A stretch of DNA of 38,729 bases from Shigella phage ESh10, in sequence record ON528723; one strand, 5' to 3'. Both the position numbers and the translations under genes were made by a program. The first letter of the stretch is position 1, and each line of letters begins with the position of its first letter. Below, piece by piece: positions 9,280-37,793 of the stretch. Under the pieces are notes generated by a model. It was given only the letters and a program-made list of their open reading frames with translations, was not told the DNA's origin and searched no databases.

Positions 9280-11394
9280 ATGCTCGTAAGTGACATTGAG
9301 GCCAACAACCTCTTAGAGAAAGTCACCAAGTTTCACTGTGGCGTTATCTATGACTACCGTGATGGTGAGTATCATAGTTATCGTCCGGGCGACTTCGGGG
9401 CGTATCTGGATGCGCTGGAAGCCGAGGTGAAGCGAGGTGGGCTTATTGTTTTCCATAACGGTCACAAGTATGACGTTCCGGCTTTAGAGAAACTCGCAAA
9501 GCTGCAACTCAATCGTGACTTCAAGTTACCGCGTGAGAATTGTATTGACACATTGGTACTCTCGCGTTTACTTCATGCGAACCTTAAAGACACAGACATG
9601 GGGCTTCTTCGTTCCGGGAAACTACCCGGTAGTCGCTTCGGGTCTCACGCTCTGGAGGCATGGGGTTATCGCTTGGGCGAGATGAAAGGTGAATACAAGG
9701 ACGACTTCAAGGCTATGCTGGAAGAGCAGGGCGAAGAATATGTTGATGGTGCTGAGTGGGTTTCATTCAACGAGCCGATGATGGCGTATAACGTTCAAGA
9801 CGTTGTGGTCACTGTTAAGCTCTTAGAGAAATTCCTTACAGACCTCCACTACTTCCCTGCTGGTATGGACTTCACGAAATACGATGCGGATTTATTCTGG
9901 CGTGAAGCTGGCGAGTCTGTGGATATTGAACATCGTGCAGCGTGGCTTTTAGCGAAGCAGGAGCGTAACGGCTTCCCGTTCAACACACAGGCCATTGAGG
10001 AACTTTATGTAGAACTGGCAGCGAAACGCGCCGAACTTCTGAGAAAGCTAACCGAAACGTTTGGCTCATGGTATCAACCGAAAGGTGGTAAGGAGCTCTT
10101 CAAGCACCCACGGACAGGCAAGCCGCTGCCGAGTTATCCGCGCGTGGTCTATCCGAAACAGGGTGGCGTGTACAAGAAGCCTCGTAATAAGGCACAGCGC
10201 GAAGGTCTTGAACCTTGCGACTTGGACACTAGGGATTACATGGAGGGTGCTCCGTATACTCCGGTCGAGTTCGTTACGTTCAAGCCAAGTAGCCGTGACC
10301 ACATTCAGAAGAAACTACAGGAGGCCGGATGGGTTCCTGAGAAGTTCACCGAGAAGGGTGCGCCTGTGGTGGATGATGAGGTCTTGGAGCATGTACGAGT
10401 GGATGACCCTGAGAAGCAGGCGTGCATTGACTTGATTAAAGAGTACCTGATGATTCAGAAGCGAATCGGTCAGGCGGCAGAGGGCGACAAGGCGTGGTTA
10501 CGTTATGTTCAAGATGATGGCAAGATTCATGGAGCCGTTAACCCTAACGGTGCAGTTACTGGTCGTGCTACTCATAGTTTCCCAAACCTTGCACAAGTAC
10601 CCGGCGTTCGTTCTCCTTATGGGGAGCAGTGTCGTAGCGCTTTTGGTGCTGAACATCATTTGGATGGGATTACTGGCAAGCCGTGGGTGCAAGCAGGGAT
10701 AGACGCCAGTGGCTTAGAGTTGCGCTGTCTGGCACACTTCATGGCTCGCTTCGACAACGGAGAGTATGCGAATGAGATTCTCAACGGTGACATTCACACC
10801 AAGAACCAGAACGCTGCGGAACTCCCAACGCGCGACAACGCCAAGACCTTCATTTACGGGTTCCTTTACGGAGCAGGAGATGAGAAGATTGGTCAGATTG
10901 TTGGGGCAGGGAAGGAGCGCGGGAAGGAACTCAAGAAGAAATTCTTAGAGAACACCCCGGCGATTGCAGCGCTACGAGAAGCTATCCAACAGTCTCTCGT
11001 TAAGTCTTCCGCTTGGATTGGTGGTGAGCAGAAAGTCCAGTGGAAACGCCGTTGGATTAAGGGTCTGGATGGTCGCAAGGTTCACGTCAGGTCTCCACAC
11101 GCAGCGCTCAACACATTGTTGCAGTCTGCTGGTGCTCTAATTTGTAAGCTGTGGATTATCAAGACCGAAGAGATGCTCATTGAGAAAGGCTTGAAGCATG
11201 GCTGGGATGGTGACTTTGCGTACATGGCTTGGGTTCACGATGAGATTCAGGTGGCCTGCCGTACAGAGCACATCGCTCAGATTGTTATTGACACCGCGCA
11301 GGAAGCTATGCGTTGGGTAGGAGAGCATTGGGCTTTCCGTTGTCGTTTAGATACCGAAGGTAAGATGGGGCCGAATTGGGCTGTCTGCCACTAA
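9280..11394 (+). CDS. 5: DNA polymerase (family A, with thioredoxin-binding insert)
   Basis: 704 aa; near-identical in blocks to T7 DNAP (…HNGHKYDVPAL…, …DASGLELRCLAHF…, …VHDEIQV…). Confidence 0.96.
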   Translation: MLVSDIEANNLLEKVTKFHCGVIYDYRDGEYHSYRPGDFGAYLDALEAEVKRGGLIVFHNGHKYDVPALEKLAKLQLNRDFKLPRENCIDTLVLSRLLHANLKDTDMGLLRSGKLPGSRFGSHALEAWGYRLGEMKGEYKDDFKAMLEEQGEEYVDGAEWVSFNEPMMAYNVQDVVVTVKLLEKFLTDLHYFPAGMDFTKYDADLFWREAGESVDIEHRAAWLLAKQERNGFPFNTQAIEELYVELAAKRAELLRKLTETFGSWYQPKGGKELFKHPRTGKPLPSYPRVVYPKQGGVYKKPRNKAQREGLEPCDLDTRDYMEGAPYTPVEFVTFKPSSRDHIQKKLQEAGWVPEKFTEKGAPVVDDEVLEHVRVDDPEKQACIDLIKEYLMIQKRIGQAAEGDKAWLRYVQDDGKIHGAVNPNGAVTGRATHSFPNLAQVPGVRSPYGEQCRSAFGAEHHLDGITGKPWVQAGIDASGLELRCLAHFMARFDNGEYANEILNGDIHTKNQNAAELPTRDNAKTFIYGFLYGAGDEKIGQIVGAGKERGKELKKKFLENTPAIAALREAIQQSLVKSSAWIGGEQKVQWKRRWIKGLDGRKVHVRSPHAALNTLLQSAGALICKLWIIKTEEMLIEKGLKHGWDGDFAYMAWVHDEIQVACRTEHIAQIVIDTAQEAMRWVGEHWAFRCRLDTEGKMGPNWAVCH

Positions 11395-33669: not shown

Positions 33670-33692
33670 AATTAACCCTCACTAAAGGGAGA
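33670..33692 (+). promoter_or_regulatory. T3-type phage RNAP promoter (right-end promoter, phiOR-like)
   Basis: aattaaccctcactaaagggagag. Confidence 0.8.
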
Positions 33693-34076: not shown

Positions 34077-34555
34077 ACCTAAAGATGCCCTGTAGTTCGT
34101 AATGGTCTTACAGGGTCTTCTGGTGTCTCCTAGCTATCCCTTCGGGATGCGCCTATGGTCTCACCTATGGTGTGGCCTTACCTAAAGTGGTTGCCTAAAG
34201 AGACCCTTTAAGAATTTACCACAAAAATCTGAATGGGTATCTCACAGTTCAAGAACCCAAAGTACCCCCATAGCCCTCCTAAAGCCACCTAAAGCCAGCC
34301 CTACCCTAGGGTTTAACCTTCGGTTAACCTTGGGTATCTCCTCAAGTGGCCTATAGGATAGCCTAAAGTGTTGCCTAAAGTCAATACCTAAAGAGGTGGA
34401 TGGCTTAAGGAGGACTTGAAGAGTGTCCTAGTGTACCAGTTCGATAGTACATCTCTATGTGTCCCTATCTGTTAGCCTCATAAAGTAAACCCTAAAGCCA
34501 CCACCTAAAGACCAGACCTAAAGCCACCACCTAAAGAGTAGCGCTATCTTAAAGA
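34077..34555 (+). repeat. array of dispersed CCTAAAG-type heptamer repeats typical of T7-family genome ends
   Basis: More than 12 copies of (A)CCTAAAG or one-mismatch variants, e.g. 34077, 34181, 34194 and the run ccctaaagccaccacctaaagaccagacctaaagccaccacctaaagag. Confidence 0.7.
34240..34470 (+). repeat. terminal repeat of the mature genome (single copy here; genome left end at 34240)
   Basis: tctcacagttcaagaacccaaagtaccccc at 34240 matches the extreme left end of T3/T7 DNA (TCTCA(C/T)AGT…); right boundary (~34466-34470, …tgtgtccct) placed by analogy and approximate. Confidence 0.5.
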
Positions 34556-34628
34556 CAACCAGACCGATAGACCAACTGTTAACCTGTAGTGATGCCCTGT
34601 AGTTGTCTATGGTGTCTATCGTCAATTC

Positions 34629-34650
34629 AATTACCCTCACTAAAGGGAAT
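34629..34650 (+). promoter_or_regulatory. T3-type phage RNAP promoter (left-end promoter, phiOL-like)
   Basis: aattaccctcactaaagggaat followed by AT-rich segment. Confidence 0.75.
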
Positions 34651-34704
34651 GAGGTTGATACTTAAAGAGGGAATAAAGATTTAATAAAAGATTTAAATTA
34701 ATGG

Positions 34705-34734
34705 TTGACTTTAAGTTACCTTTAAGGCTATTAT
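34705..34734 (+). promoter_or_regulatory. host sigma70 early promoter (A1-like)
   Basis: TTGACT (34705..34710), 18-nt spacer, TATTAT (34729..34734). Confidence 0.65.
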
Positions 34735-34833
34735 TCATCACGTCAACGGGACAACGGCCTTAAAGCCACTCCCTGAGATACCGGAGTCAACCGGATAAGT
34801 AGACAGCCTGATAAGTCATACGAAAAACAGGCA

Positions 34834-34862
34834 TTGACAACATGAAGTAAACGCAGTAAGAT
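34834..34862 (+). promoter_or_regulatory. host sigma70 early promoter (A2-like)
   Basis: TTGACAacatgaagtaa… -35 at 34834..34839, 17-nt spacer, TAAGAT at 34857..34862; near-identical to T7 A2. Confidence 0.8.
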
Positions 34863-34934
34863 GCACAACATGACGTTAACCACCGCTTCGGTGTCTTCTA
34901 GGCGACTTAAGCGCACCACGGCACATAAAGCGAA

Positions 34935-34963
34935 ACAAAATGGTTGACAACATGAAGTAAGCA
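34935..34963 (+). promoter_or_regulatory. host sigma70 early promoter (A3-like)
   Basis: TTGACAacatgaagtaagcacgg TACGAT; -35 at 34935..34940, -10 at 34958..34963; near-identical to T7 A3. Confidence 0.8.
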
Positions 34964-35184
34964 CGGTACGATGTACCACATGAAAGACACCGAGTGTCGT
35001 AGGTGTAAAAACGCGACATAGTGGATAGATGGCGAAAGCACAAGCGACCACGATAATAAAGAGCTTGTCGCACTTATAACGCAAGTGACGGCTAACACTG
35101 AAATAGCCTCAGCTCGACGAAACTGTAGCCTAAAGTTCTTTAACAATCTGGATAATAGCTCTTGAGTGTACCGTATAAGCGAAT

Positions 35185-35222
35185 AACTCAAGGTCGCACT
35201 GAAAGCGTGGCCTTTATGATAT
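35185..35222 (+). promoter_or_regulatory. RNase III-type processing hairpin upstream of gene 0.3
   Basis: aactcaaggtcgcactgaaagcgtggcctttatgat. Confidence 0.65.
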
Positions 35223-35256
35223 TCACTTAACATGAACTAACATGAGGTAACACCAA

Positions 35257-35715
35257 ATGATTTTCACTAAAGAGCCTGCTAACGTCTTCTATGTACTGGT
35301 GTCAGCATTCCGTTCTAACCTTGATGATGAGGTGAACATGAGCCGCCACCGCCACATGGTGAGCGAATTGCGTGCCGCACCGGGTATCTACGGAGAACTT
35401 GAGTCTACCGATTTGACCGGGTGCTATCGTGAGAGTATCGCACTGGCTCCAACCGAGGAAAAGACCATGCGTTTACTCTGCAAGAACAAAGAGCAGGCAC
35501 TACAGGTAGCTCGCTTAGCTTGCAATGAGTATGAGCAAGATTGCGTACTGGTATACAAATCACAGACTCACACAGCGGGATTGGTGTACGCTAAGGGTAT
35601 CGACGGTTACAAGGCTGAACGTCTGCCGGGTAGCTTCCAAGAAGTGCCCAAAGGCGCACCGCTGCAAGGCTGCTTTACGATTGACGAGTTCGGTCGCCGC
35701 TGGCAGGTGGCCTAA
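35257..35715 (+). CDS. 0.3: S-adenosyl-L-methionine hydrolase (SAMase), anti-restriction protein
   Basis: 152 aa; MIFTKEPANVFYVLVSAFRSNL… recognised as T3 gene 0.3 SAMase, not the T7 Ocr DNA mimic. Confidence 0.9.
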   Translation: MIFTKEPANVFYVLVSAFRSNLDDEVNMSRHRHMVSELRAAPGIYGELESTDLTGCYRESIALAPTEEKTMRLLCKNKEQALQVARLACNEYEQDCVLVYKSQTHTAGLVYAKGIDGYKAERLPGSFQEVPKGAPLQGCFTIDEFGRRWQVA

Positions 35716-35716
35716 C

Positions 35717-35872
35717 ATGAATCGTTATTACATCAACGTACCGGGCTGGGGTGGGTCTCTAACCTGCTACGGATACAACGAACGGGACGCACGGAAACGT
35801 TTTAGAGAACAACACGGATTCGGAAGGCTTCCTAATGGGACGCGCCTATGGCTGGACGCCCGTGATTGGTAA
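35717..35872 (+). CDS. small early protein (51 aa), hypothetical
   Basis: MNRYYINVPGWGG…; ATG 2 nt after the 0.3 stop; same frame as ORF 35525..35872. Confidence 0.5.
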   Translation: MNRYYINVPGWGGSLTCYGYNERDARKRFREQHGFGRLPNGTRLWLDARDW

Positions 35873-35877
35873 GTGAT

Positions 35878-35913
35878 AGACTCAAGGTCGCACTGTATGT
35901 GTGGCCTTTATGA
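35878..35913 (+). promoter_or_regulatory. RNase III-type processing hairpin
   Basis: actcaaggtcgcactgtatgtgtggcctttatgatt. Confidence 0.65.
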
Positions 35914-35939
35914 TTATCACTAAGTATAGGACTAACACC

Positions 35940-36140
35940 ATGAGTAAACTTCTGGCAACATCTAAAATAGAAGGCCAATGCACCGTAACACTGCGTGAGT
36001 ATTACCACGGGTCAATGGGAAGCACCTATATTGTGCGATACGGTAAACAGGTCACACATTGGGTAAACCCGATTTTAGCACAAGAGGATTATCAAGCCTG
36101 TGTGATGCACCAAGCAACATGTGCAGGCTGGAATGATTGA
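35940..36140 (+). CDS. small early protein (66 aa), hypothetical
   Basis: MSKLLATSKIEGQCTVTL…; ORF-track start 35901 lies inside the RNase III hairpin, so 35940 is preferred. Confidence 0.5.
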   Translation: MSKLLATSKIEGQCTVTLREYYHGSMGSTYIVRYGKQVTHWVNPILAQEDYQACVMHQATCAGWND

Positions 36141-36159
36141 CATTACAGGAGGATTGGCA

Positions 36160-36318
36160 ATGGTTATCTTTATCGCTGTCGCACTCTTTGCGGTCGCTGG
36201 CTGGTACTCTGAGTCACGCAAGGCCGCTCGCTATCATCGCAAGATGGTTAAACTCATGGAACACTTGGACGCAGAAGGGCGAGGCCGCGAGGCTATCGAA
36301 CTGGTGAAACACGCATGA
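36160..36318 (+). CDS. small early membrane protein (52 aa), hypothetical
   Basis: ATG after CAGGAGG; single predicted TM helix MVIFIAVALFAVAGW. Confidence 0.45.
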   Translation: MVIFIAVALFAVAGWYSESRKAARYHRKMVKLMEHLDAEGRGREAIELVKHA

Positions 36319-36683: not shown

Positions 36684-37793
36684 ATGACTTTCACCGAAGC
36701 ACAAGCCGCACTCGAAGCTATCCGCAACCTACCGATTGAGCGTCTGAACGAGCGCCAGCCCATGCTGGTGGCTCTTGCGGCTGCCATCGTGAACGATGAG
36801 ACCCAAGACGGGCAACTGACGCAGGCAGCAGGAAACACGGCGCTAGAGCACATGGACTACTGGCAGACCCTAGCGGCGCGTATGCGTGATGTTGGTTTCA
36901 TCAAGCTGGGCAATGGTCACTTTAGCGCAGCATATGAGCACGCATTGTTACCGGGCAAGGTCATCAAGGTAGGCTTTAAGAAAGAGGACTCAGGCGCAGC
37001 CTATGCAGCCTTCTGCCGTATGAATCAAGGCCGGGAAGGTATCCCTAAGGTGTATGACATTCAGCGCCATGCTGGTTGTTACACGGTGGTTCTTGATTAT
37101 CTGAATCCGCTTAACTACTGGTGCGATGGTGAGAGTGACAAGATTCGTCACCACTTCAAGGCCGCACGGGAAATCATTGAGGAGGATTGCTTTGATGCTG
37201 CCGAAGAGTACCCAATAAGTGACGGGTTCATTGAGACCTGCAAGGATATCCGCAAGTTCTTCTTAGGCATCGCATCGTTCGACTGCCACAGCGGGAACAT
37301 GATGAAAGACCAGATGGGACGCCTGATTATCACAGACCCGGTATCATTCAGCGCAGACGACAAGTTAAAGCCGGGTGAGTTCCACTGTGACCCGGATGAA
37401 CTCATCGCTGAGATTGAGGCGCTGAGAGCGCAGGAAGCGATTGACCGCTGCAAGGCACGTAAGGCACGCCGTGACCCTAAAGGAGACTTTCAGGTAGCAC
37501 GTAAAGCCCGTGCCAAATGGCGCAGAAAGGCCTCTAAGCGTGAGAAGCGCAACGCTAAGGTACTCGCTAAGATGCGCATGGATGCCAACGAGCAACGTAG
37601 GGCCGAGCCTAGGGCACGTATGTTGTGGGGCGATAAGCACTGGCGCAACGCTTGGGTGCAGCACATGAATGTTGACTTCGCACGGCTAGAACTGTTAGCA
37701 GCCGCACAGATGGCACAGATAGACCACAAGGCTATCGTATGTGGCAAGCCGTTACACATAGACGCATACCTTGACAAGAGACTGCAAGGCTGA
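36684..37793 (+). CDS. 0.7: serine/threonine protein kinase / host transcription shut-off protein
   Basis: 369 aa; T7 gp0.7-like (…LGNGHFSAAY…VIKVGFKKEDSGAAY…FCRM…GIPKVYD…). Confidence 0.9.
   Translation: MTFTEAQAALEAIRNLPIERLNERQPMLVALAAAIVNDETQDGQLTQAAGNTALEHMDYWQTLAARMRDVGFIKLGNGHFSAAYEHALLPGKVIKVGFKKEDSGAAYAAFCRMNQGREGIPKVYDIQRHAGCYTVVLDYLNPLNYWCDGESDKIRHHFKAAREIIEEDCFDAAEEYPISDGFIETCKDIRKFFLGIASFDCHSGNMMKDQMGRLIITDPVSFSADDKLKPGEFHCDPDELIAEIEALRAQEAIDRCKARKARRDPKGDFQVARKARAKWRRKASKREKRNAKVLAKMRMDANEQRRAEPRARMLWGDKHWRNAWVQHMNVDFARLELLAAAQMAQIDHKAIVCGKPLHIDAYLDKRLQG

What the first reader, a model, noticed from the sequence alone, without database searches (positions are those of the whole stretch)
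35257..35715. Anti-restriction by SAM hydrolase rather than Ocr
The first early gene encodes the T3-type SAMase (152 aa), which depletes S-adenosylmethionine and blocks SAM-dependent type I restriction-modification; T7 has the DNA-mimic Ocr in this slot. This defines which host defences the phage is likely to evade.
Basis: established knowledge. Interest (0 to 1): 0.45.

Follow-up and report, generated by a model that had tools for sequence, protein, structure and literature searches.

The report
T3-type SAM lyase gene 0.3
This is an ordinary, already catalogued copy of the phage T3 "SAMase" gene, which strips the host of S-adenosylmethionine so that SAM-dependent defences fail; the enzyme family is now known to be a lyase that also blocks the host SAM synthase, not a hydrolase.

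Summary
The ORF is real. It runs 35257..35715 (+), starts at ATG and encodes 152 aa. It is the first gene after the physical left end of a circularly permuted T3-like (Teetrevirus) genome.

- **Identity:** it aligns without gaps to the solved T3 SAMase (PDB 7OCK/8BB1, E=1.8e-91, 136/151 identical). It hits Pfam PF23780 "S-AdoMet_lyase" (136.8 bits, cut-off 28).
- **Already deposited:** the exact sequence is URY11089.1 of Shigella phage ESh10, on a contig of 38,729 bp, the same length as the window.
- **Key residues:** all residues shown experimentally to matter in T3 are kept. These are E68/Q94 (SAM cleavage) and T4, N9, Q103, T104, H105 (MetK binding).
- **Selection:** dN/dS against T3 is 0.14.
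- **No Ocr:** the window has no Ocr homologue; T7 has Ocr in the same slot.

Two updates are needed. The T3 enzyme is a lyase (MTA plus homoserine lactone), not a hydrolase. It also binds and inhibits host MetK, and it defeats BREX as well as type I R-M.

Nothing here is new. Activity is inferred by homology and was not measured.

The parts
34629..34650 (+). T3-type phage promoter (phiOL equivalent), AATTACCCTCACTAAAGGGAAT
   Evidence: Read from the sequence. 91% direct-repeat copy of the consensus promoter at 33670-33692. Same 22-mer as the 'phi gene 0.3' promoter listed for Yersinia phage AP5 (PMC4283147). Corresponds to T3 phiOL at 366-388.
34705..34734 (+). Host sigma-70 promoter, A1 equivalent (TTGACT-18-TATTAT)
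   Evidence: 10/12 consensus match. Lies in the block that aligns to T3 1-729, where T3 A1 is annotated at 443-472.
34834..34862 (+). Host sigma-70 promoter, A2 equivalent (TTGACA-17-TAAGAT)
   Evidence: 10/12 match. T3 A2 is annotated at 572-601. Direct-repeat partner of A3 (family D3).
34944..34972 (+). Host sigma-70 promoter, A3 equivalent (TTGACA-17-TACGAT)
   Evidence: 10/12 match. T3 A3 is annotated at 683-711.
35176..35229 (+). RNase III-type processing hairpin, R0.3 equivalent, in the 5' leader of the 0.3 mRNA
   Evidence: Maps onto T3 'RNase III recognition site R0.3' at 822-875 through the 87.9% alignment T3 783-1352 = window 35137-35708. Region 35150-35260 folds at -26.7 kcal/mol, z=-2.64, and 0 of 200 shuffles fold as well.
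35244..35248 (+). Shine-Dalgarno GAGGT, 8 nt before the ATG
   Evidence: Read from the sequence.
35257..35715 (+). Gene 0.3: S-adenosylmethionine lyase ('SAMase'), 152 aa, 17.1 kDa
   Evidence: ORF. PF23780 136.8 bits. PDB 7OCK/8BB1 E=1.8e-91. 90.1% identical to T3 gp0.3 with all functional residues kept. Exact match to URY11089.1. dN/dS 0.14.
35338..35715 (+). Possible in-frame internal product 0.3B (M28-A152, 125 aa, 14.0 kDa), which lacks the MetK-binding N-terminal tail
   Evidence: ATG at 35338 preceded by GAGGTG. Same codon as T3p02 'in-frame internal initiation' (982-1359) and phiSG-JL2 0.3B. M28 is kept only in the T3/BA14 subgroup. Expression here is not shown.
35870..35921 (+). Next RNase III-type hairpin, the probable 3' boundary of the processed 0.3 mRNA segment
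   Evidence: 82.7-88.1% similar to T3 R0.5 and R0.3. Region 35860-35945 folds at -25.4 kcal/mol, z=-2.25.

Best explanation
Gene 0.3 of a T3-like podovirus (the sequence equals Shigella phage ESh10) encodes a T3-type S-adenosylmethionine lyase.

Inferred course of events, from the T7/T3 paradigm. The genome enters left end first. Host RNA polymerase starts at the three strong A1-A3 promoters. RNase III trims the transcript at R0.3. Gp0.3 is therefore the first phage protein made.

The protein lowers intracellular SAM in two ways. (i) It cleaves SAM in a unimolecular lyase reaction to 5'-methylthioadenosine plus L-homoserine lactone, which later hydrolyses spontaneously to homoserine. E68 and Q94 position the substrate. 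(ii) It binds the host SAM synthase MetK through its N-terminal tail (M1-N9) and the beta4-beta5 loop (Q103-T106). This inhibits new SAM synthesis and stabilises the lyase itself.

SAM-requiring defences, namely type I R-M and BREX, then lose their cofactor before the bulk of the unmodified phage DNA is exposed.

Shown here: the ORF, its position and signals, homology, residue conservation and purifying selection. Inferred by homology to T3: enzymatic activity, MetK binding and the defence-evasion phenotype.
For: - **Family match:** Pfam PF23780 S-AdoMet_lyase, E=5.5e-40, covering 132 of 133 profile positions.
- **Solved relative:** gap-free alignment to T3 SAMase chains 7OCK/8BB1, E=1.8e-91; 136/151 residues identical.
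- **Cleavage residues:** E67, E68, Q94, D95, G55 and Y57 are identical to T3. E68Q and Q94A each cut T3 activity about 5-fold, and the double mutant is inactive (bioRxiv 10.1101/2023.02.27.530186). T3 E68Q also fails in vivo complementation (PMC7877911).
- **MetK contacts:** M1, I2, F3, T4, K5, A8, N9, Q103, T104, H105 and T106 are identical to T3.
- **Family-wide conservation:** T4, N9, G55, E68, Q94, D95, Q103, T104 and H105 are invariant in a 10-sequence alignment reaching 32% identity. This agrees with the paper's statement that T4, N9, Q103, T104 and H105 are strictly conserved.
- **Purifying selection:** dN/dS is 0.14 against T3. There are zero non-synonymous changes in aa 1-22 and 93-151, despite dS of 0.42-0.55.
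- **Position and signals:**
- **Lyase chemistry for the T3 enzyme:** PMC7877911.
- **MetK inhibition:** PMC8406200.
- **BREX plus type I R-M:**, and the review PMC12707154.
- **Existing annotation:** exact protein already deposited and annotated; 486 phage records carry a homologue.
Against: No experiment exists on this particular protein.

Fifteen substitutions against T3, all in residues 23-92, flank the E67/E68 pair (S60, A62, L63, M71, L73, L74). Their effect on kinetics or oligomerisation is unknown.

No ligand-bound structure of the T3 enzyme defines its active site. T3 E68Q alone keeps 20-30% activity, so the catalytic residue list is incomplete.

The relative weight of SAM cleavage and MetK inhibition for type I R-M, as opposed to BREX, is still open.

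The two published MetK complexes disagree: filaments in one, a 4:4 complex in the other.

The host MetK is not in the window. My single-sequence AlphaFold model was too poor to use (pLDDT 46.4).
Confidence: 0.93

Rival explanations
1. It is a true SAM hydrolase, as GenBank and the first reader name it: water attacks SAM in the active site and gives MTA plus homoserine directly.
For: Historical annotation of T3 gp0.3 and of nearly all database homologues, including the exact match URY11089.1.
Against: The T3 enzyme's product on TLC migrates and stains like homoserine lactone, not homoserine. NMR and DFT on the family member Svi3-3 show a unimolecular lyase reaction, with homoserine arising only by later spontaneous hydrolysis (PMC7877911). 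Pfam and UniProt now name it a lyase. Pfam matches no family other than PF23780 at E<=1.
Confidence: 0.03
2. It acts as an Ocr-like DNA mimic, or as a direct binder of the type I enzyme, with SAM cleavage incidental. This is the old 'SAMase-independent anti-restriction' idea. It is also asserted for the 99%-identical AP5 protein in PMC4283147.
For: Old T3 mutants kept anti-restriction without SAMase activity. The gene occupies the same slot as T7 ocr.
Against: tblastn of Ocr against the whole window gives a best E of 0.16, and that hit lies elsewhere. The protein is near-neutral (net charge -2, pI 5.9), whereas Ocr is net -28, pI 4.05. The SAMase-independent activity is now explained by MetK binding.
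Confidence: 0.02
3. It is a SAM-dependent methyltransferase, as RefSeq and PHROG 2226 label this family.
For: Only the label itself.
Against: The only Pfam family at E<=1 is S-AdoMet_lyase; no methyltransferase family matches. The solved T3 protein is a nine-stranded beta-barrel with two outer helices; that this is not a methyltransferase fold is my own knowledge. The biochemistry of the 90%-identical T3 protein is SAM cleavage.
Confidence: 0.01
4. It is a decaying or inactive copy retained only by position.
For: None beyond the 15 substitutions against T3.
Against: The frame is intact and the length is identical to T3. dN/dS is 0.06-0.19. The N-terminal 22 and C-terminal 59 residues are invariant at high dS. 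All tested functional residues are kept.
Confidence: 0.01

Closest known systems
Bacteriophage T3 gp0.3 SAMase / S-adenosylmethionine lyase (UniProt P07693; PDB 7OCK, 8BB1)
   Same: Same length (152 aa) and a gap-free alignment with 90.1% identity. All mutationally tested SAM-cleavage and MetK-contact residues are the same. Genome position is the same: first gene after A1-A3 and R0.3. The internal in-frame start at M28 is the same. Both fall in the same 90% cluster.
   Different: 15 substitutions, all within residues 23-92, plus the C-terminal residue (Q to A); pI 5.9 against 8.2. In T3 an RNase III site follows the stop codon directly. Here a 51-aa ORF comes first.
Shigella phage ESh10 URY11089.1; gp0.3 of Yersinia phage vB_YenP_AP5, Shigella phage CT02 and Klebsiella teetreviruses
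   Same: ESh10: identical protein, and its contig length equals the window length. AP5: 99.3% aa identity. CT02: 96.5% nt identity, with the same set of small downstream ORFs.
   Different: Essentially nothing. These are the same gene in sister phages, annotated 'S-adenosyl-L-methionine hydrolase' or, wrongly, 'SAM-dependent methyltransferase'.
Svi3-3 / Orf1 environmental phage SAM lyases (PDB 6ZMG and related entries)
   Same: Same reaction. Conserved Gly, aromatic, Glu and Gln SAM-binding positions (Svi3-3 G56/Y58/E69/Q104; here G55/Y57/E68/Q94).
   Different: Sequence similarity is barely detectable, and Svi3-3 was not found by phmmer against the PDB at E<=1. [quoted passage not shown]
T7 Ocr (gp0.3)
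   Same: Same genomic slot and the same early expression logic. Same defence targets: type I R-M and BREX (PMC8594841).
   Different: Unrelated sequence and mechanism. Ocr is an acidic DNA mimic that occupies the DNA-binding site of the defence enzymes. Ocr is also the trigger of the PARIS abortive system. No Ocr homologue is present here.
CRISPR-associated SAM-AMP lyase of Clostridium botulinum
   Same: Predicted to resemble the phage SAM lyase family; it yields MTA by a lyase mechanism (PMC10600005).
   Different: It is a host-side enzyme that prefers the SAM-AMP signal molecule. Whether the T3-type enzyme cleaves SAM-AMP was not addressed in any source I read.

Membership tests
T3-type S-adenosylmethionine lyase (Pfam PF23780; T3 gp0.3 subgroup) | Full-length significant match to the family profile | tested here: met
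   PF23780 E=5.5e-40, 136.8 bits against a cut-off of 28, profile positions 1-132 of 133. PHROG 2226 E=1.1e-50.
T3-type S-adenosylmethionine lyase (Pfam PF23780; T3 gp0.3 subgroup) | Close homology to the biochemically and structurally characterised T3 enzyme | tested here: met
   7OCK/8BB1 E=1.8e-91, residues 1-151 without gaps. 136/151 identical.
T3-type S-adenosylmethionine lyase (Pfam PF23780; T3 gp0.3 subgroup) | SAM-positioning residues: E68 and Q94 (double mutant dead in T3), D95, and the conserved Gly/aromatic pair (G55, Y57) | tested here: met
   All identical to T3. G55, E68, Q94 and D95 are invariant, and position 57 is always Y or F, across homologues down to 32% identity. Mutational basis.
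T3-type S-adenosylmethionine lyase (Pfam PF23780; T3 gp0.3 subgroup) | MetK-binding determinants: N-terminal tail (M1-K5, A8, N9) and beta4-beta5 loop (Q103, T104, H105, T106) | tested here: met
   All identical to T3. T4, N9, Q103, T104 and H105 are invariant in alignment A1. Structural and mutational basis.
T3-type S-adenosylmethionine lyase (Pfam PF23780; T3 gp0.3 subgroup) | First gene at the genome left end, downstream of host promoters A1-A3 and RNase III site R0.3 | tested here: met
T3-type S-adenosylmethionine lyase (Pfam PF23780; T3 gp0.3 subgroup) | Nine-stranded beta-barrel fold with two outer helices | tested here: inconclusive
   The single-sequence AlphaFold2 model was poor (mean pLDDT 46.4), so no fold search was run. 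The fold is implied by 90% gap-free identity to the solved chain.
T3-type S-adenosylmethionine lyase (Pfam PF23780; T3 gp0.3 subgroup) | Converts SAM to MTA plus L-homoserine lactone | not testable with these tools
   Needs purified protein and HPLC, TLC or NMR.
T3-type S-adenosylmethionine lyase (Pfam PF23780; T3 gp0.3 subgroup) | Binds and inhibits host MetK; relieves type I R-M and BREX restriction | not testable with these tools
   Needs pull-down and efficiency-of-plating assays. The host metK gene is not in the window.
Ocr-type DNA-mimic anti-restriction protein | Sequence similarity to T7 Ocr | tested here: not met
   tblastn of Ocr against the whole window: best E=0.16 at 9841-10056, nothing at the 0.3 locus.
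Ocr-type DNA-mimic anti-restriction protein | Strongly acidic, DNA-like charge | tested here: not met
   Net charge -2, pI 5.94, against Ocr's net -28, pI 4.05.
SAM-dependent methyltransferase (RefSeq / PHROG label) | Match to a methyltransferase domain profile | tested here: not met
   S-AdoMet_lyase is the only Pfam family at E<=1. No NCBIfam hit.

The most novel reading that the evidence does not exclude
The copy here may differ functionally from the T3 prototype in either of two ways. First, all 15 substitutions cluster in residues 23-92, around the E67/E68 segment and the predicted outer helices, and could retune oligomerisation, MetK inhibition or escape from a host sensor of SAM depletion. 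Second, the 51-aa ORF of unknown function starts 1 nt after the 0.3 stop, lies inside the same RNase III-bounded mRNA segment and is absent from T3. It could be a co-expressed partner or a second counter-defence factor. Nothing I found supports either idea beyond the anatomy.
Probability: 0.06. Interest if true: 0.35.

Novelty: already known. Interest (0 to 1): 0.08.

Why it matters
For this phage it predicts the early counter-defence profile. The phage should evade SAM-dependent type I R-M and BREX. It should not trigger sensors that recognise the Ocr protein, such as PARIS, whose reported trigger is Ocr itself; that last point is my inference and is untested for T3-type phages. The gene may also affect host methionine/SAM metabolism, AI-2 and polyamine synthesis. 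This is useful when choosing phages for therapy cocktails against Shigella, Klebsiella or Yersinia strains that carry these systems. It adds nothing to general knowledge, because the Ocr/SAMase alternation at locus 0.3 of the Studiervirinae is textbook material (PMC8594841). The practical value of this check is annotation hygiene: 'hydrolase' and especially 'SAM-dependent methyltransferase' are wrong labels for this family.

Tried and rejected
- **Structure prediction:** a single-sequence AlphaFold2 run gave mean pLDDT 46.4 and pTM 0.47. That is too poor to use, so I ran no fold search. An alignment-based run would have needed the costly whole-database homologue search. I judged that unnecessary given a solved structure at 90% identity.
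- **NCBIfam:** no model matches.
- **Ocr elsewhere in the window:** tblastn found nothing, best E=0.16.
- **Downstream 51-aa ORF as T7 gp0.4 (also 51 aa):** BLASTP gives no alignment at E<=100. The three small ORFs have no Pfam hit and only 'unknown function' PHROGs.
- **Ungapped search for the T3 promoter consensus:** it finds 11 sites but misses the phiOL-like copy at 34629-34650, which carries a 1-nt deletion. That copy was recovered through the repeat search and the AP5 promoter table.
- **Antisense and overlapping ORFs at the locus:** 35405..35563 (-), 35424..35558 (-), 35560..35718 (-) and the 35525 upstream extension of the +2 frame. All are short and lie inside a gene under strong purifying selection. 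I treated them as chance ORFs and did not search them separately.
- **Positive selection on the variable segment (aa 23-92):** rejected; dN=0.17, dS=0.68.
- **Type III R-M as a further target:** my literature search retrieved no direct statement, so I make no such claim.

Full report
**Observation.** The window holds an ATG-initiated ORF of 152 codons at exactly 35257..35715 on the + strand. A GAGGT Shine-Dalgarno lies 8 nt upstream, at 35244-35248. The ORF is not a chance reading frame. Its product matches the solved T3 SAMase chains (PDB 7OCK, 8BB1) with E=1.8e-91 over residues 1-151 without a gap. It matches Pfam PF23780 'S-AdoMet_lyase' with 136.8 bits against a cut-off of 28, and PHROG 2226 with E=1.1e-50.

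**What the window is.** The exact 152-aa sequence is already public as URY11089.1, 'S-adenosyl-L-methionine hydrolase [Shigella phage ESh10]'. It sits on a contig of 38,729 bases, the length of this window. The window is therefore almost certainly that complete genome. It is a Teetrevirus, 95-97% identical at the DNA level to Yersinia phage AP5, Shigella phage CT02 and several Klebsiella and Enterobacter phages.

The sequence is circularly permuted. T3 position 1 maps to window 34240. The window ends fall inside gene 1, the RNA polymerase gene: T3 3841/3842 corresponds to window 38729/1.

**Anatomy of the locus.** Downstream of the mapped left end come the following features:
- CCTAAAG-type repeats typical of T7-group genome ends.
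- A T3-type phage promoter at 34629-34650, the phiOL equivalent. It is identical to the AP5 'phi gene 0.3' promoter.
- Three strong sigma-70-like promoters at 34705-34734, 34834-34862 and 34944-34972, each a 10/12 match. They correspond to T3's annotated A1, A2 and A3.
- A hairpin at 35176-35229 that maps onto T3's annotated RNase III site R0.3 and folds better than all 200 shuffles, z=-2.64.

The only + strand ORF of 30 aa or more between the left end and 35257 is a 31-aa GTG ORF (34589..34684) lying across the phiOL-like promoter. 'First early gene' is therefore correct.

An in-frame ATG at 35338 (M28), preceded by GAGGTG, is the same codon that T3 and phiSG-JL2 annotate as the internal start of '0.3B'. 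M28 is kept only in the T3/BA14 subgroup.

**Is it functional?** Against T3 the gene has dS=0.59 and dN=0.083, so dN/dS is 0.14. Against CT02 dN/dS is 0.06. Residues 1-22 and 93-151 show no amino-acid change at all despite dS of 0.42-0.55. All 15 substitutions fall in residues 23-92, where dN/dS is still only about 0.25.

Every residue with experimental support in T3 is retained:
- E68 and Q94: each single mutant is down about 5-fold, and the double mutant is inactive.
- E67 and D95.
- The Gly/aromatic pair G55/Y57, equivalent to G56/Y58 of Svi3-3.
- The MetK contacts M1, I2, F3, T4, K5, A8, N9, Q103, T104, H105 and T106 (literature).

I aligned ten homologues spanning Teetrevirus, Berlinvirus, Przondovirus, Elunavirus, Pektosvirus and a Providencia phage, down to 32% identity. 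The invariant columns include T4, N9, G55, E68, Q94, D95, Q103, T104 and H105. This independently reproduces the published statement that T4, N9, Q103, T104 and H105 are strictly conserved.

**Mechanism.** Everything in this paragraph is inferred from T3; nothing was measured on this protein. The T3 enzyme is not a hydrolase. Its reaction product behaves as homoserine lactone on TLC. The family mechanism, worked out on Svi3-3 by crystal structures, DFT and NMR, is a unimolecular lyase reaction giving MTA plus L-homoserine lactone. The lactone hydrolyses spontaneously afterwards (PMC7877911).

[quoted passage not shown] One study saw filaments (PMC8406200). Another saw a defined 4:4 complex at 2.8 A (bioRxiv 10.1101/2023.02.27.530186, later Cell Rep 2023). 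The interaction also stabilises the SAMase in vivo.

The protein is required for T3 to overcome BREX as well as type I R-M. A catalytically dead mutant keeps partial anti-BREX activity through MetK. A 2025 review summarises the same picture and notes that the contribution of MetK inhibition to type I evasion still needs testing.

That the gene is transcribed by host polymerase before most of the genome has entered is established T7/T3 biology. It fits the promoter layout found here.

**Ocr comparison.** T7's record places ocr at 925-1278, directly after A1-A3. That is the same slot as T3 0.3 at 901-1359. Ocr has no homologue anywhere in the window: the best tblastn E is 0.16, and it lies elsewhere. 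The protein here is near-neutral (net -2, pI 5.9), whereas Ocr is net -28. The BASEL paper states the Ocr/SAMase dichotomy for the whole subfamily. The AP5 genome paper describes its 99%-identical gp0.3 as both a B-DNA mimic and a SAMase. The tests here do not support the DNA-mimic part.

The enzyme is a lyase rather than a hydrolase. SAM depletion works by a dual mechanism, cleavage plus MetK inhibition, with BREX as a demonstrated second target. The proposed refutation criterion should take into account that loss of catalysis alone does not abolish protection in T3.

**Novelty.** Already known. The exact protein is deposited. It lies in the same 90% cluster as the prototype. 486 phage records carry a homologue. 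Interest is low. The only slightly unusual points are peripheral and are listed under things noticed in passing.

**Limits.** There was no wet-lab test and no usable structure model: the single-sequence AF2 run gave pLDDT 46.4. The host MetK is not available. The active site of the T3-type enzyme has not been seen with a ligand in the papers I read.

Noticed in passing
window 35716-36314: About 600 nt between gene 0.3 and the T3 gene-0.6 homologue are absent from T3. They hold three small ORFs of unknown function. The first is 35717..35872 (51 aa, ATG 1 nt after the 0.3 stop, PHROG 13225). The second is 35940..36140 (66 aa, PHROG 6500). The third is 36160..36318 (52 aa, hydrophobic N-terminus, PHROG 25811). 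None has a Pfam hit. CT02 annotates the same ORFs as hypothetical proteins. The 51-aa ORF is unrelated to T7 gp0.4, which is also 51 aa.
   Followed up: partly
window 35870-35921: A second RNase III-type hairpin, 83-88% similar to T3 R0.5 and R0.3, folding at -25.4 kcal/mol with z=-2.25. It lies after the 51-aa ORF rather than directly after 0.3 as in T3. The processed 0.3 mRNA segment would therefore be bicistronic here.
   Followed up: partly
window 35338-35715: An in-frame internal start (M28, GAGGTG SD) could give a 125-aa '0.3B' product lacking the MetK-binding tail. T3 N-terminal truncations of 5 or 10 residues were unstable and lost MetK binding, so the role of 0.3B, if it is made, is unclear. 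M28 is conserved only in the T3/BA14 subgroup.
   Followed up: partly
whole window; junction 38729/1; left end about 34240: The window is a circular permutation of a linear T3-like genome. It is cut inside gene 1 (RNA polymerase), and the physical left end maps near 34240. Eleven T3-type promoters match the consensus within 3 mismatches, against zero expected by chance.
   Followed up: yes
database annotations of homologues: RefSeq records and PHROG 2226 label this family 'SAM-dependent methyltransferase', and most GenBank records say 'hydrolase'. Both are wrong for an enzyme shown to be a SAM lyase. The AP5 paper additionally conflates it with the Ocr DNA mimic.
   Followed up: yes
window 34743..35233, minus strand: Mechanical ORFs of 108-113 aa run antisense across the A2/A3 promoter and leader region. 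CT02 even annotates a 54-aa 'hypothetical protein' on that strand in the equivalent place. These overlap regulatory DNA and are probably spurious calls. I did not test this.
   Followed up: no
window 36684..37793: The gene 0.7 serine/threonine kinase homologue is 369 aa and 89% identical to T3 gp0.7 (PHROG 2828, E=1e-176). It is another early host-takeover gene of the same operon.
   Followed up: partly
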